Shown here in pieces: positions 45,699 to 56,171 of a stretch of 64,000 nucleotides of DNA. A model generated the notes under the pieces. That model was not told the origin of the DNA and did no database searches. It saw only the letters and a list, made by a program, of their open reading frames with translations. Made by a program: the position numbers and the translations under genes. Positions within the stretch are counted from its first letter, which is position 1. The number at the start of each line of letters is the position of its first letter. This DNA is from an uncultured Chloroflexia bacterium (lineage in GTDB: Bacteria; Chloroflexota; Anaerolineae; CG2-30-64-16). The stretch is from NCBI GenBank assembly GCA_963810095.1, contig CAWEMM010000006.1, positions 288,001 through 352,000 on the forward strand, read 5' to 3'.

Positions 45699-45755
45699 CC
45701 GACAGTGTGGTGTGATGCGGGCAAGCTGCCTGCGTCACACCGCATGGGAGACTCA

Positions 45756-47415
45756 ATGAACCGACGGCTTGGCTGTATGACGGGGGGCGGCCTGCTCGCC
45801 GCAGCCCTCACGATCGCCATCGTGCTCGTGTTCTACGTCGCGCGGGGCGGCGCCATGTTCAGCCCCGGCCCGCTCAACGCGCAGCCCGGCGAAGAGGCGC
45901 TGGGTGGTGTGACGGCCCACGCGGAAATTGGGGGCCAGTGCGCGGCATGCCACACGGCGCCGTGGTCAAGCGCAACCCTCGCGGATCGCTGCCAGGCCTG
46001 TCATGCTTCCGTCGCAAACGAACTGGTAAGCAACCAGGGACTCCACGCCCAACTCAGAGGACAGGCCGGCGCCTTCGATTGTCGGGGCTGCCACAGCGAG
46101 CACAAGGGCCCGACGGCCGCGCTGACCCAGATCGACCCCGCGGCCTTCCCCCACGCTGCCACAGGTTACGACCTGGCCGGCCATCGGGCAGATGACCGGC
46201 GGACGGCCCTTTGCGTGCGGCGACTGCCACACGACCGGCGTCACCCAGTTCGCCGTGGCAACCTGCCAGGATTGTCACCGGCAGATGGACGCGGCGTACA
46301 TGACGGCGCACGTCGCCGACTTCGGCGAGGCGTGTCTCGGCTGCCACGACGGGGTTGACCGCTACAGCCGCAAGCGCTTCGACCACAACGCGCTGTCCTT
46401 CGCCCTCGATGGTGAGCACACGGACCTGGCTTGCAGCAAGTGTCATGCCGGCGCGGCCTCGCCAGGCGACCTGCAAGCAACGAAGTCGGGATGCGTGGAC
46501 TGCCACCGGGCGGACGACGCACACAAGGGCCAGTTCGGGACCGACTGCGCGGGCTGCCACAACACGGCTGCCTGGCCCGACGCCACCTTCGACCACGCCA
46601 AGACCGCCTTCCCGCTGACCGGCAAGCACGAGGGCGTGAAGTGCCAGGACTGCCACCGGGACGGCCGTTTCAAGGGCACAAGCGCCCAATGCGTCGACTG
46701 CCACCGGGCGGACGACGCCCACAAGGGCCAGTTCGGGACCGACTGCGCGGGCTGCCACAACACGAGTGCCTGGCCCGACGCCACCTTCGACCATGCCAAG
46801 ACCGCCTTCCCGCTGACCGGCAAGCACCAGGGCGTGAAGTGCCAGGACTGCCACCGGGACGGCCAGTTCAAGGGCACGAGCTCCCAATGCGTCGACTGCC
46901 ACCGGGCGGACGACGCCCACAAGGGCCAGTTCGGGACGGACTGCGCGGGCTGCCACAACACGGCTGCCTGGCCCGACGCCACCTTCGACCATGCCAAGAC
47001 CGCCTTCCCGCTGACCGGCAAGCACCAGGGCGTTAAGTGCCAGGACTGCCACCGGGACGGCCAGTTCAAGGGAACTCCTCAGCAGTGCGCTGCCTGCCAC
47101 GAGGACCCGGTCTTCCATCGCGGCGCGTTCGGAACGCAGTGCCAGGACTGCCACACGACGGCCCGTTGGCAGCCCGCCACCTTCAACCAGCGCCACACTT
47201 TCCCGATCGATCACGGTGAAGGCGGCGCCTCATCCTGTCGCACATGCCACCCCGATGCCGTAAAAGCCTATACCTGTTACGGCTGCCACGAGCACACGCC
47301 GGCCGAGACGATTGCGAGGCATGCGGAAGAGGTGCAGGGCGATATCACGGACTGCGTGAGGTGCCACCCAACCGGACAGGAAGAGGGTGAGGGCCACGGG
47401 GGCGGCGGCGACTGA
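45756..47415 (+). CDS. membrane-anchored multiheme cytochrome c (~21 CxxCH), one frameshift near 46190
   Basis: N-terminal TM, FSPGPL, 3 CxxCH in the first frame and 18 in the second; FDH...FPLTGKH repeats. Confidence 0.88.
46492..47085 (+). repeat. three tandem 198-bp intragenic repeats (66 aa, 3 hemes each)
   Basis: units start at 46492, 46690, 46888 and are nearly identical at DNA level. Confidence 0.92.
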
Positions 47416-48212: not shown

Positions 48213-49793
48213 CTAGGGCAGTTCTAGCGCCGCGGCAGATGCCACCTCCTTCGCCAGTGTCCCCGAATGTATCAGCTCGGCCAGCGACTCGATATCCGGT
48301 GTAGTCGGGCGATCGTGCTCGAGAAATGCAGCCACACGGCGGACTGCGGCGTAGGCCGCCGCACTGCCCACCCCCAGACGGTCCGGCCCGTGCTCGCGCA
48401 GGTCCACCGCCTGTGCGGCGGTCAGCAGCTCGATGGCGAGCACCCGGCGTACGTTGTCCAGGATTTCCAGCGTGTGCCGTGCCGCATTGGCGCCCATGCT
48501 GACGTGGTCCTCCTGGTTGGCGCAGGACGGGATGGAGTCGACGCTGTCCGGATGCGCCAGCGTCTTGTTGTCGGAGACGAGGGCGGCCGCCGTGTACTGC
48601 ACCATCATCAGGCCGCCGTCAAGCCCGCTCTCGCGTACCAGCATGGCCGGCAGCCCGGCATTGAGCTCGGGCGTGAGGAGGCGGAAGATTCTGCGTTCGG
48701 CAATGTCGGCCACCTCGGCCATGGTGATGCCCAACAGATCGAGCCAGAGCGCGGGGCCCTGGCCGTGGAAGTTCCCGCCCGAAATGGCCCGGTAAGTGCC
48801 GTCGGGGTTCGGGAAGATGAGGGGGTTGTCGGTCGCCGCGTTAATCGCCGCACTGAAACGGCCGCGCACAAACGCAACCGCGTCGAGCGCGGGGCCGAGC
48901 ACCTGGGGTGTGCAGCGGAGGCTGTAGGCATCCTGCACGCGGCCGCTCATCGAGTCGACCAGCCGGCTCCCTCGGGTCAGCGCACGCATGTTAGCGGCCA
49001 CCCGCTGCTGCCCGGGCTGCCCGCTCACCGCATGCAGGTCTGGATCAAACGCAGCGGAGAGACCGGCGAGTGCTTCCAGCGAGAGCGACGCGCCGATTTG
49101 CGCGTGGGCCAGCAGGTTTTCGGCGTCGAAGGTCGCGAGCGCCCCGCACGCGGCCATAAAGTCGATGCCGTTTGAGAGCGCCAGGCCCTCCTTGGCCAGG
49201 AGCACGGGCCGTTCGATGCCCGCCCGGCGCATCGCCTCGGCCCCGTCCAGCAGCTGGCCGCCGTACCTGGCCTTCCCGCCGTAAGCACCCTGGCCCGCCG
49301 CGTCTTCAGCGCCGTCACGCGAGAGAACGACCGCAATGTGGGCCAAGGGCGCCAGGTCGCCGCTGGCCCCAAGCGAGCCCTTTGCCGGAACGACGGGCGT
49401 GACGCCCGCGTTGAGCATGTCGATCAGCGTCTGGGCGATCAACGGTCGCACGCCCGAGTTGCCCTTGGCGAGCATGTTGGCACGGATCACCATCATTGCC
49501 CGCACGACTTCATCCGGCAGCGCCTCGCCCACCCCCACGACGCACAGCACGACGAGGTTGCGCGACAACTGGCGTGCCTGGGCCGCGCTGATCTGCCGGG
49601 TAGCCAGCGAGCCGAAACCGGTGTTGACGCCGTAGATGATGCTTCCCTCGCCGTCGATGGCATCCACGACCCACTGGTGGCTGCGCTGCATCCGGGCGCA
49701 AACCTCGCCGTCGAGGGGGGCAACCTTCTCGCCGAAGCGGGCGATGGCCACAACCTGCTCGATCGTCAGGCGGCTGCCAGTGAACTCAATCAT
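48213..49793 (-). CDS. hutH: MIO-dependent aromatic amino acid ammonia-lyase (HutH-like, atypical)
   Basis: YGVNTGFG, GSLGASGDLAPL (MIO), KEGLAL.NG, QDAYSLRC.PQ, DNP, GGNFHG, NQEDHVSM. Confidence 0.85.
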   Translation of the reverse strand: MIEFTGSRLTIEQVVAIARFGEKVAPLDGEVCARMQRSHQWVVDAIDGEGSIIYGVNTGFGSLATRQISAAQARQLSRNLVVLCVVGVGEALPDEVVRAMMVIRANMLAKGNSGVRPLIAQTLIDMLNAGVTPVVPAKGSLGASGDLAPLAHIAVVLSRDGAEDAAGQGAYGGKARYGGQLLDGAEAMRRAGIERPVLLAKEGLALSNGIDFMAACGALATFDAENLLAHAQIGASLSLEALAGLSAAFDPDLHAVSGQPGQQRVAANMRALTRGSRLVDSMSGRVQDAYSLRCTPQVLGPALDAVAFVRGRFSAAINAATDNPLIFPNPDGTYRAISGGNFHGQGPALWLDLLGITMAEVADIAERRIFRLLTPELNAGLPAMLVRESGLDGGLMMVQYTAAALVSDNKTLAHPDSVDSIPSCANQEDHVSMGANAARHTLEILDNVRRVLAIELLTAAQAVDLREHGPDRLGVGSAAAYAAVRRVAAFLEHDRPTTPDIESLAELIHSGTLAKEVASAAALELP

Positions 49794-51059
49794 AAGAATC
49801 CTCCCCCCTGCGTTGGACAGGGTCACGCTCAACCACCCGCCCCCGCTTGACCATCCGGTCGACCGCGTTGTTGCCGAGACGGTAAATCACGTCTTCAAAC
49901 GTCGGCAGACGCCAGATCTGGATATCGGCAAGCTGACCGGGGGCGAGCGCACCCCGGTCGGTCAGTCCCAGCGCCCGTGCGCCGCCGACTGTGCAGGCCA
50001 GCAGCGCCTCCTCGGCAGAAAAGCGATACAGCCGGCAGGCAAGCTGCATGACGAGCTGCAGCGACTCGGTCCAGCATGCGGGGCAGAGGTCGGTGGCCAG
50101 GGCCAGCGTCATGCCCTGCGCCATCAGCATCCGGGCATCGAACGGACGGCGATGCGCGACCGCCCAGTCGAGGGCCGGCATGACGACCCCGACCACGCCC
50201 GCCTCGGCCAGGCGGCGCGCCGCATCCGGGGTGGTGTAGTTCAGGTGATCCGCCGATACCGCGCGCAGCTCTGCTGCCAGGGCTGCGCCGCCGATATCCG
50301 AGTACGCGTCGGCGTGCACTTTGGGCTTGAGCCCTGCCGCACGCCCCGCCTCGAGGATCCGGCGCGACTCGGCCACGGTGTAGTAGCCGTCGTCCAGATA
50401 GACGTCGCAGAACTCTGCGAGCCCTTCGCGTCGCGACCTCAGGAATCATTTCGTGCAAGATGGAGTCGATATAACGCTCGCGGGGCACGCCGGGCGGGAA
50501 GTCATGTGCGGCGAGGAACGTTGGCACGACGTCCGCCGGTCCCGCTTGCCCAAGACGCCTGGCGACCCGAAGCATCCGCAGCTCGTCGGCAACGGTCAGC
50601 CCGTAGCCACTCTTCACTTCGACAGTGGTCGTGCCATGGCGGAACATGCTCTCCAGCCGGGCTGCCGCGCCGGCGAACAACTCGTCTTCCGAGGCGTTTC
50701 GGGTCATCCCGACGGTGGCGAGGATGCCCGCAGGGATGCCCAGCTCGCGCGACCTCGGCCGCGCTGCGCGTCATGCGAGCGGCGTACTCCCCGACCCGCG
50801 AGCCGCCGAACACAAGGTGGGTGTGGCTGTCGACGAAGCCGGGTGCGACGATACATCCAGACGCGTCAAGCACTGCGGCCGGCGCGACGTCAACCTGGCG
50901 TGGGACGTCGTCCTTCGTTCCGACGGCGACGATTTGCTCGCCGGCTATCGCAACCATGCCGTCCGGAATGCGGCCAGCCAAGTCATCTCCCGAGGGCACA
51001 CAGGTGAGCACCAGGCCGCCCTGGATCACAAGGCTTGCGGAAGGCAGCGACACGTTCAA
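49786..51059 (-). CDS. hutI: imidazolonepropionase-like amidohydrolase (HutI-like, atypical), two frameshifts
   Basis: PGFVDSHTHLVFGGSR, GTTTVEVKSGYGL, PTFLAAH, SADHL, GARALG...G.L.PG..AD. Confidence 0.82.
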
Positions 51060-52819
51060 CTCTGGGCCGGCGCCTTCTCGGCCGTGTGCGCCCCCACCGG
51101 GTGGGGCCCCCGGCGGTCGACCGTGCCGTCCTCGGGGCCGAAGGTTGCCGTTGGGCTCCACCAGAGCGGCACCCGAATGCTGTCGGTCGTCAGCGGCCCC
51201 TTGCCCTGGGCCACCTGCCGCGCCAGTTCGTAACCCGCCTGGGCGTGGCGAATTACGCCGATCCCCGAGTCGACCGTCAGAGCCGCCTCCAGCCGCAGGT
51301 CGGCTTCCTCGCTACCGTCCGCGATCATGGTGACGCCCGTGTGCACCGCCTCGCCCATGGAATAGTTCGCCTGGATGGCGATCAGGTCGCACATCGCGGA
51401 CGCATTGAGCAGCGCGTTGAGGTAGGGCCAGTCCGAGATGAGGTCGCCGCCGTCGAGCATCTTTTCCGACTCGAAGGTCGGGTTGACGATCGAGCCGGAA
51501 TCGAGGTTATCGCGCGAGAAACCGACCGGTCCCTTGACTTCGCCGTCGCGGATGAGCCGGTTGACGGCCAATCCAAACGCCTTTCGCTCGCCGAAGCCAA
51601 GATAGCACACGCGGGCGGGCAGGCCCTCGATAGGGAGAATGCGGCGAGCGAGATTGATCCACTTGACGGTCGTCGCGTCGTGCGGGAACATCTCGAGCAC
51701 CAGGTCGTCGAGCCGTGCCAGGTCCGCGGCCTCGCCCGAGAGGCAAGTCCAGCGGAACGGGCCCCGGCCGACGGTGAAGAGCGGCCGGATGTAGGCGGCG
51801 ACGAATCCGGGGATGCGCATGGCGGTTTCTTCGGGCATACCCGCGTCACGACATTCCTTGCGGATGCTCGTGCCGTATTCGAAGACCTGGACGCCCTGGT
51901 CATGGAAGCCGAGCATGGCGGTCAGCTGTCGCTTCATCGACTCGCGCGCCCGGTCCAGGTAAGCCAGCCGGTCCGTGCGGCGCGCGGCCTCGGCTTCTGC
52001 CACGGAACAACCGGCCGCAATGTAGGAAATCGGATCATGACAGGGGCACATCTCGGTGACGATGTCCGGCTTCCACCCCAACTCGAGCGCCCGGGGGAAG
52101 AGATCGGCCGCGTTCCCGTACAAGCCAATGCTCAGTGCCCGGCCCTCAGCCTTGGCCTTCTCGGCCAGTTCGATGCCCTCTTCCAGCGAGTGCACCTGCA
52201 CATCCAGGAACTTCTTCGCAATGCGCACCGGGATGATGTCGGGGTTTGCATCGACCACCAGGCAGACGCCGCCGTGCATGGTCATCGCCCGCGGCTGGTT
52301 GGCGCCCATGCCGCCGAGCCCCGCAGTGAAGAGCGTGCGCCCCACAAGTGACCCGCCGAAGTGCTGCTCGCCGATCGCGCCCAGCGTCTCGAACGTCCCC
52401 TGGATCACGCCCTGCGTGCCGATGTACTCCCAGGGCGCGGCCGTGTACTGCGCAAACATGGTCAGGTTCTTGTCCTGCAGCTCGTAGAAAACCGGCCAGG
52501 TGGCCTTCATGATGTTCGTGTTCGCCATGACGACCCGGGGCGCCAGGCGGTGGGTCTTGAAGACCGCGACGGGCATGCCGGACTGGATCGCGAGCGTTTC
52601 GTCGTTTTCGAGGTTGAGGAGCGCGTCGACGATGGCGTGATACGACTCCCAGTTGCGCGCACACTTGCCAATGCCGCCGTAGATCACCAGCCGCTCCGGC
52701 TTCTCGGCGTTCTCCATGTTGTTCTCCAACATGCGGAGCAGCGACTCCTGTTTCCAACCCTTGCAGCGGAGCGTGGGGCCGCGCTGCGCCCGAACGGAGT
52801 AAAGGATCTCGTTTTTCAC
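51056..52819 (-). CDS. hutU: urocanate hydratase-like protein (HutU-like, divergent)
   Basis: LVIYGGIGK.ARNW, YIGTQG..QGT.ET, TAGLGGMG, PGFV.AYIRPLF..GRGPFRW, GLPARVC, D.WPYLNALLN. Confidence 0.85.
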   Translation of the reverse strand: MKNEILYSVRAQRGPTLRCKGWKQESLLRMLENNMENAEKPERLVIYGGIGKCARNWESYHAIVDALLNLENDETLAIQSGMPVAVFKTHRLAPRVVMANTNIMKATWPVFYELQDKNLTMFAQYTAAPWEYIGTQGVIQGTFETLGAIGEQHFGGSLVGRTLFTAGLGGMGANQPRAMTMHGGVCLVVDANPDIIPVRIAKKFLDVQVHSLEEGIELAEKAKAEGRALSIGLYGNAADLFPRALELGWKPDIVTEMCPCHDPISYIAAGCSVAEAEAARRTDRLAYLDRARESMKRQLTAMLGFHDQGVQVFEYGTSIRKECRDAGMPEETAMRIPGFVAAYIRPLFTVGRGPFRWTCLSGEAADLARLDDLVLEMFPHDATTVKWINLARRILPIEGLPARVCYLGFGERKAFGLAVNRLIRDGEVKGPVGFSRDNLDSGSIVNPTFESEKMLDGGDLISDWPYLNALLNASAMCDLIAIQANYSMGEAVHTGVTMIADGSEEADLRLEAALTVDSGIGVIRHAQAGYELARQVAQGKGPLTTDSIRVPLWWSPTATFGPEDGTVDRRGPHPVGAHTAEKAPAQS

Positions 52820-52942
52820 GGGTGACTCCTGGTGGGGCTCTTGCCATGGAGGCCACAGACGGCCCTGAGTTACTCAGAGAGCACGAGAATCAGGGCCGAG
52901 GTTGCTCGCCGCGCGCCCGCGGCGCCCTCTGTGGCTGATCTG

Positions 52943-53851
52943 TCAATCGATGAGCGCGAGCTCGATGATCTGTTCCGTTGAGAACTCGTGCACCTGCAGA
53001 TAATAGCGCGCCACCTCTTCCAGCGCGCCGAGCGGAACCGGGCCGACGAGCTCGGTGCCGGCAATGGCAACGCCATAGCGAGCGGCCTCGGCCCGGATAG
53101 TCTCGAGCACGCGCGGAATAGGTGTCTTGGTGTAGTTGATGAGGTTCATCGAGACCTGGACCAGGTCTTTCCCCTCCAGCGCGAGGCCCATCGCCCGCAC
53201 GTACCTGTAGCCCCCGCTGACATGGCGCACTGCCTTGGCAATCCTGTCCGCGATGCTGACGTCGGTCGTGCGGAGGTTAACGTTGAAGGCAATCAGCGGG
53301 AAGCGGGCGCCGGTCACGAGTGCGCCCGACCGGGGGTTGAACGTTGCGGGCCCTTCGTCGGGCGCCCACTCGGGCTGCTGCAGCTTCGCCTCGAGCGCCT
53401 CGTACTCACCCTTGCGGATGTCGGGAAGGCTCTTGCGCTCGGGTCGCGTCGCCGCGTCCTCATAGTAATAGACCGGGACGCCAAGCTGGCCGACGAAGCG
53501 ACCCAACTGCCGGGCGATATCCACCGCCTCGGCCGGCTCCACGCCGCGCACGGGGATGAAGCCCGCGACGTCGACGGCACCCTGCCGGGGATGGCTCCCG
53601 TGATGCTCGCGCATGTCGATGAGCTCGTAGGCTTTCACGACAAGCCGCTGGGTCGCCTCCAGCACGTCCTCGGGCTCGCCCAGGTAAGTGAACACCGAGC
53701 GGTTGTGGTCGGGGTCGCTCGAGTAGTCGATGAGACGCACGCCGGCCACACTCCGCACCGCGTCGGCCACCTGCTCGACCACGTCTGGTTTGCGGCCCTC
53801 GCTGATGTTTGGCTCGCACAGGAGGATCCTCTTCACTTGAGCTCCTTTCAT
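52943..53851 (-). CDS. glutamate formiminotransferase (FTCD N-terminal type)
   Basis: CEPNISEGR, DPDHNRSV, IDMREHHGSHPRQGA.DV, GARFPLIAFNVNL, QVSMNL, ELVGPVP. Confidence 0.92.
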   Translation of the reverse strand: MKGAQVKRILLCEPNISEGRKPDVVEQVADAVRSVAGVRLIDYSSDPDHNRSVFTYLGEPEDVLEATQRLVVKAYELIDMREHHGSHPRQGAVDVAGFIPVRGVEPAEAVDIARQLGRFVGQLGVPVYYYEDAATRPERKSLPDIRKGEYEALEAKLQQPEWAPDEGPATFNPRSGALVTGARFPLIAFNVNLRTTDVSIADRIAKAVRHVSGGYRYVRAMGLALEGKDLVQVSMNLINYTKTPIPRVLETIRAEAARYGVAIAGTELVGPVPLGALEEVARYYLQVHEFSTEQIIELALID

Positions 53852-54065: not shown

Positions 54066-56071
54066 TTACGGCCGGGGGGCCATCGTCAGCGTGGCAAGCT
54101 GGCCCTGCGCGCCATCCTCCACCACCGCGACCAGCACATCGCCCGGGCGGACGACCGTCTCGCCCCGCGGGATGAAGATACGCCCCCGGCGCCGGATGGA
54201 CGCGATCAGGCAATCGGGCGGCCAGGGAATTTCGCGCATCTCGTGGTCCGCAGCGAGTGCGCCCGGCTGCACGGTAACCTCTACCGTGTGCGCGCCCGAG
54301 TACACACCCAACCGCACCTGCTCCTGCGTGTGCCGGGCAACGGCACGGCGGGTCGCGGCCAGGTCGTAGGCCCGGATAATGTCAGCCCGGCTCAGAATCC
54401 CCAGCAATTCGGCCGGATCGCCGCGGTTCACGACAGGGAGCCGGCCCACATCCCGGACGCTCATCCGCCGCAACGCCGCACCGATGGACTCATCTGCAAA
54501 GGCTGTCAGCAACTCACGCGTGCAGATCGCGGCCACGTGCGTGTCAAGCCCTGCGCCGCGCTCGTGGGCGCGCTGCAGGTCGCTCAGCGTCACGACGCCA
54601 ACCAGGCGGCCGCCGGTGTCGACCACGGGCATTCCGTGATGGTGCGTCAGTGCGAAGGCATGGTCCGCCTCCGCCAGTGTGGCAGATTCGACCAGGGTGT
54701 GCGCGACGGGCGACATGGCCTCGCGAACTGTCAGCGAATCCAACACGTCCACATCGCGACCGCGCTGCAGGCGAATGCCGTGCCGCGCCAACCCGACCAT
54801 GTAGACCGAGTCCGGACTGATGCGCCTCGAGATTGCAAGGCTGACTGCCACTGCGAAAAGCAAGGGTAGGATGATGCGGTAGTCATGGGTCATCTCGAAC
54901 AACAGGAGGACCGCAGTCAGCGGTGCGTGCACTGCGCCGGCCAAGACCGAAGCCATTCCCACCATGGCGAACGCGGGCGCCTGGATGCCGAGCCCCGGAA
55001 AGATGAATGCCGCGCCCCGCCGAAGACATAGCCAAGGGTGGCGCCGATGAACAAGGCCGGCGCGAACACGCCGCCGGGAAACCCCCCGCCGATGCTGACC
55101 GGCGTCAGGATCAGCTTGGCAAGCAGCAAGGCAAAGACGGTGGTTACCGCGATACCCCCGCCGCCGTTGAGCAGTCCGCCGATTACATCATAGCCAACGC
55201 CCAGCACGCCGGGCAGGAAGATGCCGACGATGCCGACGATGAGGCCGGCGATCGCGGGCTTGACCCAGACCGGGGTATGCACGCGCTCGCGAAACACGTC
55301 GCCCGAGAAGTAGAGCAGCTTCACATATAGTGCGGCGACGGGCCCGGCCACCAGGCCGAGCACGAGGTAAAGGGGCAGCTCCAGCACCGATTGAAAGGGA
55401 TAGGGCGGGACGGCAAAGGCGGGCTCGGGCCCCGACACCGCCTGTGTCAGAACGGCCGACGCGACGGCGGCGAGTGTGATAATGCCGAACGCGGCGCTAC
55501 TGATCTCGCCCAGTATGACCTCGAGGGCGAAGAAGAGGCCGGCAATGGGAGCATTGAATGCAGCTGCGATGCCTGCTGCTGCACCCGCGGCGACGAGCGC
55601 ACGCACTCGCTCGTCGGACAGGTGCAGCAACTGGCCAAACATGGAACCGAGGCTCGAGCCGACCTGTACCGAGGGGTCTTCCGGACCGACCGAGGCGCCG
55701 GTCCCGATTGCGAGGGCCGCGCCGGCAACCTTGTAGGGCGTGCGGGTATAGCGCAGCCGGCCTCCGGCCAACGCGGTGACCTCGATGATGCCGGCTACGC
55801 CGTGGTGACGCTCGTGGCCCACAAAGCGGTGCATCAGGAGCCCGACAAGAAGGCCCCCGAAGGCGGGGATGAGGGCCAGCGCCCATGGACCGATATGACT
55901 GAGCGCCGCGCCAATCTCCTGGTACGCCGCCGTGTAGACAAGCTCGATCAGCCGCTTGAAGAGCCAGACGCCGCCCGCGGCCAGCAACCCGACCAAGACC
56001 GCCGCACCACCGAACACCGCGGACTCGGGTGGCTGGTGCACGTCGAGCCAACGCCGAACTGCGCCCCACAT
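54066..56071 (-). CDS. ClC chloride channel/antiporter with CBS pair and TrkA-C domain, one frameshift near 55000
   Basis: GASVGPEDP, GAAAGIAAAFNAPIAG..F.LE, GGVFAP, APLTAVLLLFEMT.DY, CBS, IPRGET...PGD. Confidence 0.9.
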
Positions 56072-56171
56072 CCCAAACCCCCACACGGGGTCATGTTACT
56101 GCCGGTGGCCCATTTGTGCAGTAAGGGGCAAAACAAAAGGGCCGGTTCCACCTTGGCATGCCGCCGCCGCT

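What the first reader, a model, noticed from the sequence alone, without database searches (positions are those of the whole stretch)
48213..53851. hut-like operon with coordinated active-site changes in all three core enzymes: probable pathway for a modified histidine
Seen versus canonical motifs recalled from characterised enzymes. Lyase: keeps the MIO ASG and HAL-type NQED, but has NLVVLCVVGVG where HAL has LVLSHAAG (imidazole-binding His83 of P. putida appears to be Cys). Hydratase: AQYTAAPW for GQMTAGSW, TEMCPCHD for TDQTSAHD, SRDNLD for GRDHLD, and IQANYSMG for HHGGGVG, while YGG, GPFRW and the Asp are kept. Amidohydrolase: DVYLD for DVFCE, HADAY for HADE/HAEQ, TDLCPAC for TDxNPG. The operon is led by a THF-dependent formiminotransferase. 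Established: Hut paralogues are known for ergothioneine/thiourocanate and N-methylhistidine breakdown. Inference: parallel changes around the imidazole ring indicate a non-histidine substrate (for example an N-methyl- or thio-histidine), possibly an undescribed route feeding C1 units to folate.
Basis: partly seen in the sequence, partly recalled or inferred. Interest (0 to 1): 0.78.

Follow-up and report, generated by a model that had tools for sequence, protein, structure and literature searches.

The report
Second hut cluster for methylated histidine
This is a second, diverged copy of the histidine-breakdown genes that most likely degrades N-methylated histidine, a pathway type already described in soil bacilli, here found in an anaerobic Chloroflexi genome and joined to a folate-dependent last step.

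Summary
The minus strand carries formimidoyltransferase, urocanase paralogue, imidazolonepropionase paralogue and MIO lyase, tightly packed. These are probably assembly errors: the neighbouring ClC gene is also split, and a 97%-like public contig lacks the extra base at 50431.

The same contig also carries canonical HutH, HutU and HutI, so this is a true second set.

The hydratase belongs to a tight, long-stemmed clade. It is 70-93% identical across Chloroflexota, Desulfobacterota, Actinomycetota, Spirochaetota and Bacillota, and it is separate from canonical urocanase and from the thiourocanate and S-methyl-thiourocanate hydratases. One member, 71% identical with every signature motif, is named "N(tele)-methylurocanate hydratase" by UniRef. 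That name matches the published N-tau-methylhistidine pathway (Beliaeva et al. 2022), which I could not read.

The clade signature is nearly invariant.

In 55 of 80 related loci a formimidoyltransferase lies beside the pair, and in 52 a cyclodeaminase does. This suggests a folate-linked exit that may be undescribed.

Verdict: a real finding and a broadly correct reading, but a known kind of system. Interest is moderate to low.

The parts
52943..53851 (-). Glutamate formimidoyltransferase (FTCD N-terminal type, 302 aa). First gene of the cluster and the only FT found in the genome.
   Evidence: TIGR02024 413.9 bits against cut-off 221; PF07837 + PF02971. Single hit in the own genome.
51056..52819 (-). 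Urocanase-family hydratase paralogue (587 aa) of the clade that UniRef names N(tele)-methylurocanate hydratase. It has a clade-specific C-terminal tail (PLWW...).
   Evidence: All three urocanase Pfam domains. hutU 629.6 bits, below the cut-offs of both thio-type models. Motif changes against solved urocanases. 71% identity to P0367. Trees.
49786..51059 (-). Imidazolonepropionase paralogue read in three frames. A likely TTG start at 51059 overlaps the hydratase stop. The stop at 49786-49788 lies 8 nt inside the lyase start.
   Evidence: Three-frame translation. hutI profile pieces 2-75 / 76-179 / 175-377. tblastn of an intact orthologue. Start codons.
50727..50745 (-). First frameshift in the amidohydrolase gene: one extra base relative to orthologues, between ...AAEVAR and LGIPAGI...
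   Evidence: Not covered by any public contig laid.
50431..50431 (-). Second frameshift: one extra base. Without it the frame reads ...EMIPEVAREGLAEFCDVYLDDGYYT, as in orthologues.
   Evidence: One contig of run X3 (262 nt, 7 other letters) leaves out exactly this base (table 4).
48213..49793 (-). MIO-dependent ammonia-lyase of HAL type (526 aa from the likely start; the ORF extends to 49832). It has Leu-Cys where HAL has Ser-His83.
   Evidence: PF00221. hutH 553.7 bits against cut-off 539. Alignments to HAL structures and to the genome's canonical HAL. The collection's own call is 526 aa.

Best explanation
The cluster is a second, paralogous hut-type pathway for a ring-N-methylated histidine, most likely N-tau(tele)-methylhistidine.

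Proposed steps:
1. The MIO lyase removes ammonia to give N-tau-methylurocanate. In this lyase the imidazole-facing His83 of HAL is replaced by Cys.
2. The urocanase paralogue hydrates that product to the N-methyl-imidazolone-propionate. Its Rossmann GxGxxG motif is kept, so NAD+ binding is presumed.
3. The imidazolonepropionase paralogue opens the ring to N-(N'-methylformimidoyl)-L-glutamate. It lacks the Glu/Gln of the HxxE/Q motif, which sits next to the leaving nitrogen.
4. The formimidoyltransferase passes the C1 unit to tetrahydrofolate. A cyclodeaminase, unlinked in this genome and adjacent in most relatives, would then release methylamine and 5,10-methenyl-THF.

What is shown: the gene order, the paralogy, the clade membership, the conserved substitutions and the conserved neighbourhood.

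What is inferred: the substrate (from a database name and a paper I recall but could not read), every chemical step, and the use of the transferase on the methylated intermediate.

The two frameshifts in the amidohydrolase gene are most likely assembly errors, not decay.
For: 1. A canonical set exists elsewhere on the same contig C6: HutU 943.4 bits, HutH 640.7 bits, HutI 439.7 bits. The window copies score 629.5 and 553.1, and the hutI pieces 188.9 + 111.5 + 52.6. They are about 47% identical to the canonical copies.

2. The hydratase clade is distinct.
- 27 clade rows, including the window and P0367, form one side of a branch with SH-aLRT 91.
- In one search the same clade has SH-aLRT 100 on a stem of 1.51.
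- It is separate from canonical HutU (P0123, 930 bits) and from P0125, which passes the S-methyl-thiourocanate model at 894 against 880.

3. P0367 (Crassaminicella thermophila, UniRef100_A0A5C0SBK3) is named 'N(tele)-methylurocanate hydratase'. It is 400/565 = 71% identical to the window protein and shares FAQYTAAPWEYIG, EMCPCHDP, SRDNLDSGS and IQANYSMGEAVH.

4. The signature is conserved.
- 81 of 81 clade hydratases have SRDNLDSGS and the Q--(A/V)NY(S/A)MG deletion motif.
- 66 of 71 paralogous amidohydrolases have HxDAY, and none has E or Q there.
- Of 51 non-canonical MIO lyases (50 from the related loci plus the window's own), none has His at the His83 position: 31 Cys, 19 Asp, 1 Ser.

5. 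The neighbourhood is conserved in the 80 related loci: amidohydrolase 75/80, FT 55/80, MIO lyase 57/80, all four genes 42/80. Cyclodeaminase is present in 52/80.

6. Aerobic Bacillaceae-type loci lack FT and the cyclodeaminase and instead carry two M20 hydrolases and transporters. This fits the published hydrolytic exit to glutamate and N-methylformamide, which I know from the abstract as recalled.

7. The reference list of PMC11432326 confirms that the paper exists. Its text says N-tau-methylhistidine reacts with a HAL-type lyase and that His83 is thought to contact the substrate imidazole (passages).

8. Evidence that the frameshifts are errors.
- A 97%-like contig of run X3 lacks the base at 50431.
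- The adjacent ClC gene is also split: Voltage_CLC profile 1-287 in one ORF and 300-346 in the next.
- Orthologues in G005, G014 and G040 are single-frame.
- Same-genus or same-family assemblies G001, G002 and G011 show the hydratase itself in several frames.
Against: - The substrate rests on one automatic or curated database name for a 71%-identical protein. In the listings I saw, the other named relatives are all called plain 'urocanate hydratase'.
- I could not read the 2022 paper, so I cannot say that its enzymes fall in this clade.
- The window lyase (Cys type) is only 44-48% identical to the Asp-type lyases of the Bacillota loci. The entry substrate could therefore differ between lineages.
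- FT is the only formiminoglutamate-consuming enzyme found in this genome. Its presence in the cluster need not mean it accepts a methylated substrate.
- There is no cyclodeaminase, GntR regulator or transporter within the 64-kb window.
- MttB-family methyltransferases lie beside the pair in 16 of 80 loci and corrinoid proteins in 6 of 80. The simple N-tau-methylhistidine model does not explain them.
- If the two frameshifts are real, the pathway is dead in this organism. The first one has no outside check.
Confidence: 0.6

Rival explanations
1. The same kind of paralogous pathway, but for a different modified histidine: N-pi-methylhistidine, an N-alpha-methylated or betaine form of a ring-methylated histidine, or another C2-unsubstituted imidazole acid. 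In this reading the hydratase and amidohydrolase are a common core fed by different entry enzymes in different lineages.
For: - Entry enzymes vary around a constant core. There are Cys-type and Asp-type MIO lyases (31 and 19 of 51).
- MIO-less lyase-family proteins occur in L051, L057 and L059. They carry GQA/GQS where MIO lyases have ASG. The L057 protein, the only one I searched, scores 154.5 bits to ergothionase 6s7j.
- AcnX plus swivel dehydratase pairs occur in 9 loci, 7 of which lack a lyase.
- MttB-family methyltransferases occur in 16 loci and corrinoid proteins in 6.
- A 2026 preprint reports a trimethylammonia-lyase that makes N-pi-methylurocanate from N-pi-methyl histidine betaine (passages).
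Against: - The only name attached to the clade says tele.
- 70-93% identity across the hydratase clade argues for one substrate.
- Nothing in the sequence discriminates pi from tau.
Confidence: 0.2
2. An isofunctional second histidine pathway: the paralogues act on ordinary histidine, urocanate and imidazolonepropionate, for example under different redox or regulatory conditions.
For: - All three proteins pass or nearly pass the NCBIfam hut models.
- Carboxylate-binding and catalytic residues of urocanase are kept.
- FT scores as a plain glutamate formimidoyltransferase.
- In G014 (95% complete) only the paralogue type was found with this query.
Against: - The paralogues coexist with a canonical set in the same genome. 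They sit directly beside canonical HutU or HutI in L028, L052 and L054.
- Residues invariant in canonical, thio-type and S-methyl-type hydratases are replaced throughout the clade: TDQT, RDH, the GGG loop.
- HAL His83 is gone from all 51 non-canonical MIO lyases examined. I recall from Roether et al. 2001 that its loss costs about 10^4-fold in activity.
- The amidohydrolase lacks the HxxE/Q residue.
Confidence: 0.07
3. An ergothioneine / thio-histidine route (thiourocanate or S-methyl-thiourocanate hydratase type).
For: - In the tree the clade groups with the thio-type hydratases rather than inside canonical HutU (SH-aLRT 99).
- Several pocket residues are Cys in this lineage.
Against: - The scores are far below both curated cut-offs: 588.8 against 930 and 627.5 against 880.
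- The motifs differ from 7ned and from P0125/P0128: YGG is kept, and there is no WGGLTAAAW.
- The lyase keeps the MIO group, whereas ergothionase is MIO-less (as recalled).
- The FT/cyclodeaminase exit needs a formimino carbon, so C2 cannot carry sulfur (chemical inference).
- The Cys residues are absent from 7 of 81 hydratases.
Confidence: 0.03
4. The cluster is a decaying relic in this genome: the amidohydrolase gene is a true pseudogene with two frameshifts, so the pathway no longer runs here.
For: - There are two independent +1 shifts in one 1.27-kb gene.
- Neither lies in a homopolymer run.
- The first shift has no outside check.
Against: - The other three genes are intact, and the amidohydrolase pieces keep all motifs with no stop in the correct frames.
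- The neighbouring ClC gene is split as well.
- Related few-contig assemblies show multiple frame breaks in the hydratase.
- One public contig lacks the extra base at 50431.
Confidence: 0.12

Closest known systems
N-tau-methylhistidine degradation pathway of soil Bacillota (Beliaeva, Atac, Seebeck, ACS Chem Biol 2022, 17:1989). I saw the reference. The abstract is recalled; the text was not read.
   Same: - It has the same logic of lyase, urocanase-type hydratase and imidazolonepropionase-type hydrolase acting on a ring-methylated histidine.
- A member of the window's hydratase clade carries the name N(tele)-methylurocanate hydratase.
- Bacillaceae-type loci of the same clade carry hydrolases instead of FT.
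   Different: - Here, and in 55 of 80 related loci, the exit enzyme next to the core is a THF-dependent formimidoyltransferase. In 52 of 80 a cyclodeaminase accompanies it. The published exit, as recalled, is hydrolysis to N-methylformamide.
- The host is an anaerobic-type Anaerolineae MAG.
- The lyase has Cys, not Asp, at the His83 position.
- Membership of the published enzymes in this clade was not checked.
Canonical histidine utilisation HutH-HutU-HutI with the formimidoyltransferase exit (TIGR01225, TIGR01228, TIGR01224, TIGR02024)
   Same: - Same folds and the same order of reactions.
- The MIO motif is kept.
- The Rossmann motif and the residues E44, Y52, T133, R362 and D443 are kept.
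- The HxH metal site is kept.
- FT scores as a normal member.
   Different: - About 47% identity to the genome's own canonical copies.
- Clade-wide replacements: M132Y, S136P, I138E/Q, Q264M, S266P, H444N, and the HHGGG loop shortened.
- HAL S82-H83 becomes L/A/S-C.
- HutI loses its GGG loop, DxFxE becomes DxYxD, and HxDE/Q becomes HxDAY.
Thiourocanate hydratase (NF058530) and S-methyl-thiourocanate hydratase (NF058531; PDB 7ned is a relative) of ergothioneine catabolism
   Same: They are non-canonical urocanase paralogues. They group with the window clade apart from canonical HutU (SH-aLRT 99).
   Different: - The window protein scores below both cut-offs.
- Those enzymes keep TDQT(S/A)AHD, RDH and the GGGG loop and change YGG to YA(A/S). 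The window clade does the opposite.

Membership tests
N(tele)-methylurocanate hydratase clade (name from UniRef) | Clusters with a named member, apart from canonical and thio-type urocanases | tested here: met
   - 71% identity to P0367.
- 27 clade rows lie on one side of a branch with SH-aLRT 91.
- The clade has SH-aLRT 100 on a stem of 1.51.
N(tele)-methylurocanate hydratase clade (name from UniRef) | Clade signature residues: (A/S)(Q/N)YTA(A/G)PW(E/Q), GxNQ, xM(C/T)P(C/A)HDP, SRDNLD, Q--ANYSMG | tested here: met
   The window protein has all of them. 81 of 81 clade rows share SRDNLDSGS and the deletion motif.
N(tele)-methylurocanate hydratase clade (name from UniRef) | Hydrates N-tau-methylurocanate and not urocanate | not testable with these tools
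   An enzyme assay is needed. The name's experimental basis could not be read.
Canonical urocanate hydratase HutU (TIGR01228) | Score over the curated cut-off | tested here: met
   629.6 bits against 375. The cut-off is lenient, however: the S-methyl-thiourocanate enzyme type P0125 also scores 644.
Canonical urocanate hydratase HutU (TIGR01228) | Conserved motifs GQMTAGSW, TDQTSAHD, GRDHLD, HHGGGVG as in solved urocanases | tested here: not met
   All four are replaced. The genome's own canonical copy keeps all four with minor substitutions outside their cores.
Thiourocanate / S-methyl-thiourocanate hydratase (NF058530 / NF058531) | Score over the curated cut-off | tested here: not met
   588.8 against 930 and 627.5 against 880.
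Histidine ammonia-lyase HutH (TIGR01225) | MIO-forming Ala-Ser-Gly and catalytic Tyr53, Asn195, Tyr280, Arg283, Phe329, Glu414 (numbering recalled from P. putida HAL) | tested here: met
   YGVNTGFG, GASGD, ALSNG, QDAYSLRC, NFHG and NQED are all present. Score 553.7 bits against 539.
Histidine ammonia-lyase HutH (TIGR01225) | Ser-His83 pair facing the imidazole ring | tested here: not met
   Leu-Cys in the window. None of the 51 non-canonical MIO lyases examined has His there.
Imidazolonepropionase HutI (TIGR01224) | Intact gene scoring over the cut-off | tested here: inconclusive
   There are three pieces of 52.9, 101.4 and 169.6 bits. No single frame reaches 298. Orthologues are intact.
Imidazolonepropionase HutI (TIGR01224) | HxH, the beta5 His followed by Glu/Gln (HxDE / HAEQ), the beta8 Asp, the GGG loop | tested here: not met
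   HxH, the beta5 His and the Asp are kept. Glu/Gln is replaced by Ala, and the GGG loop is replaced by IPAG.
Glutamate formimidoyltransferase (TIGR02024) | Score over the cut-off, both FTCD subdomains present | tested here: met
   413.9 bits against 221; PF07837 + PF02971.

The most novel reading that the evidence does not exclude
In anaerobes the methylhistidine-type hydratase and amidohydrolase core is wired to folate.

- The formimidoyltransferase would accept N-(N'-methylformimidoyl)-glutamate.
- The cyclodeaminase would then release methylamine and give 5,10-methenyl-THF. This would be a C1-conserving exit, unlike the hydrolytic release of N-methylformamide.
- The same core is a hub fed by several entry enzymes: Cys-type and Asp-type MIO lyases, MIO-less lyases, AcnX-type dehydratases, and MttB/corrinoid demethylases.
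- That would imply a family of methylated histidine derivatives, including betaines, being catabolised in sediments and digesters.
Probability: 0.35. Interest if true: 0.55.

Novelty: new member of a known kind. Interest (0 to 1): 0.35.

Why it matters
- Annotation. Hundreds of genes now annotated 'urocanate hydratase', 'histidine ammonia-lyase' and 'imidazolonepropionase' in Chloroflexota, Desulfobacterota, Actinomycetota, Spirochaetota and Bacillota genomes belong to a distinct paralogous pathway. In the genome collection, 368 stretches encode a relative of this hydratase. Metabolic reconstructions that count these genes as histidine catabolism are probably wrong.
- Biology. If the folate-linked exit is real, it would be a new way for anaerobes to harvest a C1 unit, and to release methylamine, from methylated histidine in necromass.
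- Limit. For the finding as given, the main message is that the core idea is already in print.

Tried and rejected
1. Literature. Ten full-text searches found no held paper that describes urocanase paralogues for methylhistidine. The key paper is not held, either by DOI or by PubMed id. Supplements are closed and were not asked for. The identity of PDB 8q9u/8q9v was not resolved. They score only 492 bits to the window hydratase, so they are not close members of the clade.

2. Thio-histidine reading. Rejected on NCBIfam cut-offs, motifs and the tree.

3. 'Coordinated Cys lining'. Rejected as a clade feature.

4. Search of the window for a cyclodeaminase, GntR regulator, MttB, corrinoid protein, AcnX or M20 relative. 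Nothing was found.

5. Public runs. The best holder had only 0.22 of the sampled words. The contigs laid leave 50618-50779 uncovered, so the first frameshift could not be checked. No habitat is claimed from these small shares.

6. ESM Atlas on the amidohydrolase orthologue. It gave only 'imidazolonepropionase family protein' clusters.

7. My context component labelled 'M20?' mixed M20 peptidases with NhaC-type transporters. I do not use its counts. The 'AMH' component (78 loci) was inflated by spurious alternative-frame ORFs inside the hydratase gene, so I use the tblastn count of 75/80 instead.

8. No structure prediction, complex prediction or RNA tool was used.

This report is the same with that field added.

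Full report
WHAT IS THERE

The window is G000:C6:288001-352000, at 62-70% G+C in 2-kb windows. On the minus strand between 53851 and 48213 lie four genes.
- A glutamate formimidoyltransferase, 52943-53851. TIGR02024 413.9 bits against a cut-off of 221; PF07837 + PF02971.
- A urocanase-family protein of 587 aa, 51056-52819, with all three urocanase Pfam domains.
- An imidazolonepropionase-like gene, about 51059-49786.
- A MIO-type aromatic amino-acid lyase, 48213-49832.

The genes are packed tightly. A TTG at 51059 overlaps the hydratase stop. The amidohydrolase stop at 49786-49788 lies 8 nt inside the likely lyase start at 49793. That start is supported by the protein collection's own call of the lyase, which is 526 aa long (P0407).

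Hydratase.
- AQYTAAPW replaces GQMTAGSW.
- TEMCPCHD replaces TDQTSAHD.
- SRDNLD replaces GRDHLD.
- IQ--ANYSMG replaces HHGGGVGMG, with a two-residue deletion.
- Counting along the 1uwk alignment, E44, Y52, T133, R362, C410 and D443 are kept. The Rossmann motif GLGGMGxxQP is kept.
- The roles of these residues are recalled from Kessler et al. 2004, not tested here.

Lyase. It keeps GASGD, NQED and the other HAL catalytic motifs. It has Leu-Cys where HAL structures and the genome's own canonical HAL have Ser-His.

Amidohydrolase. It has CDVYLDD, HADAY and TDLCPAC where solved HutI proteins have D(I/G)F(T/C)E, HADE / HAEQ and TD(F/C)NPG(S/T).

Correction 1. The amidohydrolase gene is not one open frame. 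It is read in three frames, matching hutI profile positions 2-75, 76-179 and 175-377. Each break is one extra base relative to intact orthologues.

Correction 2. The Cys residues are lineage-specific (see below).

ARE THE FRAMESHIFTS REAL?

- Orthologues in G005, G014 and G040 are single-frame.
- The adjacent ClC channel gene is split too. Voltage_CLC profile 1-287 lies in ORF 54917-56086, and 300-346 plus CBS and TrkA_C lie in ORF 54066-54965.
- Related assemblies G001, G002 and G011 show the hydratase itself in several frames.
- One short contig of public run X3, with 7 other letters in 262, leaves out exactly base 50431.
- The first break lies in a stretch that no laid contig covers.

I read the breaks as probable assembly errors. 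A true pseudogene remains possible, at about 0.12.

A TRUE SECOND SET

The same contig C6 carries canonical HutU (943.4 bits, at 1.75 Mb), HutH (640.7 bits, 1.7 kb from it) and HutI (439.7 bits, at 1.09 Mb). The window copies are about 47% identical to them.

The genome (88.5% complete) has one FT, the window's. It has one stand-alone cyclodeaminase on contig C11. No HutG was found, and no HutF scored over the cut-off. The FT may therefore serve both pathways.

THE HYDRATASE CLADE

- Against 5.8 billion proteins, the 120 listed best hits are 78-93% identical. Every one that carries a name is called 'urocanate hydratase'.
- Among 1.84 billion 50%-representatives, the best full-length hit is P0121 at 59%. 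The next are 43-49%.
- NCBIfam puts P0123 in canonical HutU (930 bits) and P0125 in S-methyl-thiourocanate hydratase (894 against 880).
- The window protein, P0121 and P0124 score about 590-630 on all three models.
- In the trees the window clade has SH-aLRT 100 on a stem of 1.51 changes per column. It groups (SH-aLRT 99) with the thio-type paralogues rather than inside canonical HutU.
- These are quick trees. Long branches meet, so the deep order is unsure.

DISTRIBUTION AND NEIGHBOURHOOD

A scan of one genome per species found 368 stretches encoding a relative, and 80 loci were kept. By record title they come from:
- Anaerolineae and other Chloroflexota
- Desulfobacterota
- Spirochaetota
- Thermoleophilia and other Actinomycetota
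- Calditrichota
- Bacillota, including isolates of Lysinibacillus, Ureibacillus, Brevibacillus and Neobacillus, and a Clostridiaceae strain
- Desulforhopalus singaporensis

A few titles, such as Thermoplasmata, Brocadiaceae and Micromonospora, look like binning or labelling oddities.

By tblastn with the window proteins:
- the amidohydrolase paralogue is present in 75 of 80 loci
- FT in 55
- a MIO lyase at 40% identity or more in 57
- all four genes in 42

Many loci are cut by contig ends. ORF clustering adds the following (with Pfam checks):
- a cyclodeaminase (FTCD_C) in 52 loci
- a GntR/UTRA regulator in 24
- MttB-family methyltransferases in 16
- B12-binding proteins in 6
- AcnX plus swivel pairs in 9, of which 7 lack a lyase

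In L028, L052 and L054, canonical HutU or HutI genes lie in the same cluster, next to the cyclodeaminase-FT pair and the paralogues.

SIGNATURES ACROSS THE CLADE

Hydratase. All 81 clade hydratases (window plus 80 loci) have SRDNLDSGS and the Q--(A/V)NY(S/A)MG motif. EMCPCHDP occurs in 74. The other 7, from Bacillota-type loci, have (S/E)MTPAHDP.

Lyase. Of 51 non-canonical MIO lyases (50 from the related loci plus the window's own), the His83 position is Cys in 31, Asp in 19 and Ser in 1. It is His only in the two canonical copies in the alignment. Four further rows, from L051, L057 and L059, are MIO-less lyase-family proteins.

Amidohydrolase. Of 71 paralogous amidohydrolases, 66 have HxDAY and none has Glu or Gln there. 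A large subset has Asn for the beta8 Asp.

So the changes are conserved and coordinated. The Cys pattern is not the common denominator.

WHAT IT MOST LIKELY DOES

A search with the Lysinibacillus member (L099) listed one protein, P0367 from Crassaminicella thermophila, whose UniRef name is 'N(tele)-methylurocanate hydratase'.
- It is 400/565 = 71% identical to the window protein and has every signature motif.
- It lies in the same clade: 27 rows on one side of a branch, SH-aLRT 91.
- Its nearest locus in my set, L101, has the order hydratase-amidohydrolase-cyclodeaminase-FT, with the lyase nearby.

[quoted passage not shown] Its existence and DOI I confirmed in the reference list of PMC11432326. 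As I recall the abstract, Bacillus terrae and other soil bacteria convert N-tau-methylhistidine to glutamate and N-methylformamide through hut-like steps. I could not obtain the text.

The Bacillaceae-type loci of the clade fit that description. They have no FT or cyclodeaminase. In Lysinibacillus L099, the only one I annotated with Pfam, there are two M20 hydrolases, two transporters and a sigma-54 activator.

The chemistry also fits, by inference. After ring opening the tau nitrogen is the terminal nitrogen of the formimino group. The Glu/Gln of HxxE/Q sits by the leaving nitrogen in amidohydrolases of this type. Its loss, and the loss of the ring-distal His83 in the lyase, are what a methyl group on N-tau would call for.

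WHAT REMAINS OPEN

- The substrate rests on one database name and a recalled abstract.
- The window's Cys-type lyase is only 44-48% identical to the Asp-type lyases of the Bacillota loci.
- The folate-linked exit is an inference from adjacency. The window's FT may just be the genome's general formiminoglutamate transferase.
- The MttB/corrinoid genes, AcnX pairs and MIO-less lyases next to the core are unexplained. They suggest more than one methylated histidine derivative entering the same core.

VERDICT

The system belongs to a kind already described. The thio option is rejected, and one gene is broken in this assembly. Confidence in the methylhistidine reading is 0.6. Interest is 0.35. The folate-linked, multi-entry version has probability 0.35 and would be worth about 0.55 if true.

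Noticed in passing
window 54066-56086 (-): The ClC chloride-channel gene with CBS and TrkA_C domains is split into two overlapping ORFs in different frames (Voltage_CLC profile 1-287 and 300-346). This is a third frame break within 8 kb.
   Followed up: partly
window 45705-47415 (+): Two overlapping ORFs in different frames (45705-46358 and 46192-47415) both hit multihaem cytochrome c3/c7 families. They are possibly one large cytochrome gene broken by another frameshift.
   Followed up: no
L064 9904-11370, L080 3083-4603, L033 1640-3145 and 5486-6190, and 13 further loci: MttB-family methyltransferases lie next to the hydratase-amidohydrolase core in 16 of 80 loci, and B12-binding corrinoid proteins in 6 of 80. 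They occur in Desulfobacterota, Thermoleophilia and Anaerolineae. In Desulfobacterota one MttB type sits directly downstream of the hydratase. This suggests demethylation of a quaternary or N-methylated histidine derivative.
   Followed up: partly
L062 13997-15223, L063 16950-17444 and 7 further loci: AcnX (aconitase X) plus swivel-domain pairs occur in 9 loci, 7 of which lack any lyase. A dehydratase may replace the ammonia-lyase as the entry step.
   Followed up: partly
L057 10803-12389, L059 10869-12446, L051 1319-2818 and 10966-12411: In three Actinomycetota loci the core is flanked by lyase-family proteins without the Ala-Ser-Gly of MIO (GQA/GQS instead). The L057 protein, the only one searched, is about as close to ergothionase 6s7j (154.5 bits) as to HAL. 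They may be trimethylammonia-lyase-type entry enzymes.
   Followed up: partly
amidohydrolase paralogues of L062-L078, L082, L088, L092, L101 and others: The beta8 Asp, a metal ligand in solved HutI (TD.NPG), is Asn (TN.NPG / TN.CPG) in a large subset of the paralogues. This is unusual for the amidohydrolase superfamily.
   Followed up: no
L028 11041-12729; L052 970-4349; L054 1339-6207: Canonical HutU (and in L052 and L054 canonical HutI, in L054 also a Ser-His HAL) lie in the same cluster as the paralogues, sharing one cyclodeaminase-FT pair.
   Followed up: partly
window 51056-51160 (C-terminus of the hydratase): There is a clade-specific C-terminal tail of about 30-45 residues with a conserved (V/I)PLWW(S/E)P...TFGP(E/D)D stretch. 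It is absent from solved urocanases.
   Followed up: no
P0124 and P0121 (representative library): Two further urocanase-family lineages score about 590-620 bits on all three NCBIfam models. P0124 has DGIYTAAGW and TDQSPCHDN. P0121 has GQYTAGPWEY and MEMCPCHDP and is sister to the window clade. Both appear uncharacterised.
   Followed up: partly
L048, L044, L096 record titles: Clade members sit on contigs labelled Thermoplasmata archaeon, Brocadiaceae and Micromonospora provocatoris. The last is 99%-like Lysinibacillus copies in the tree. These are likely binning or contamination artefacts rather than transfer.
   Followed up: no
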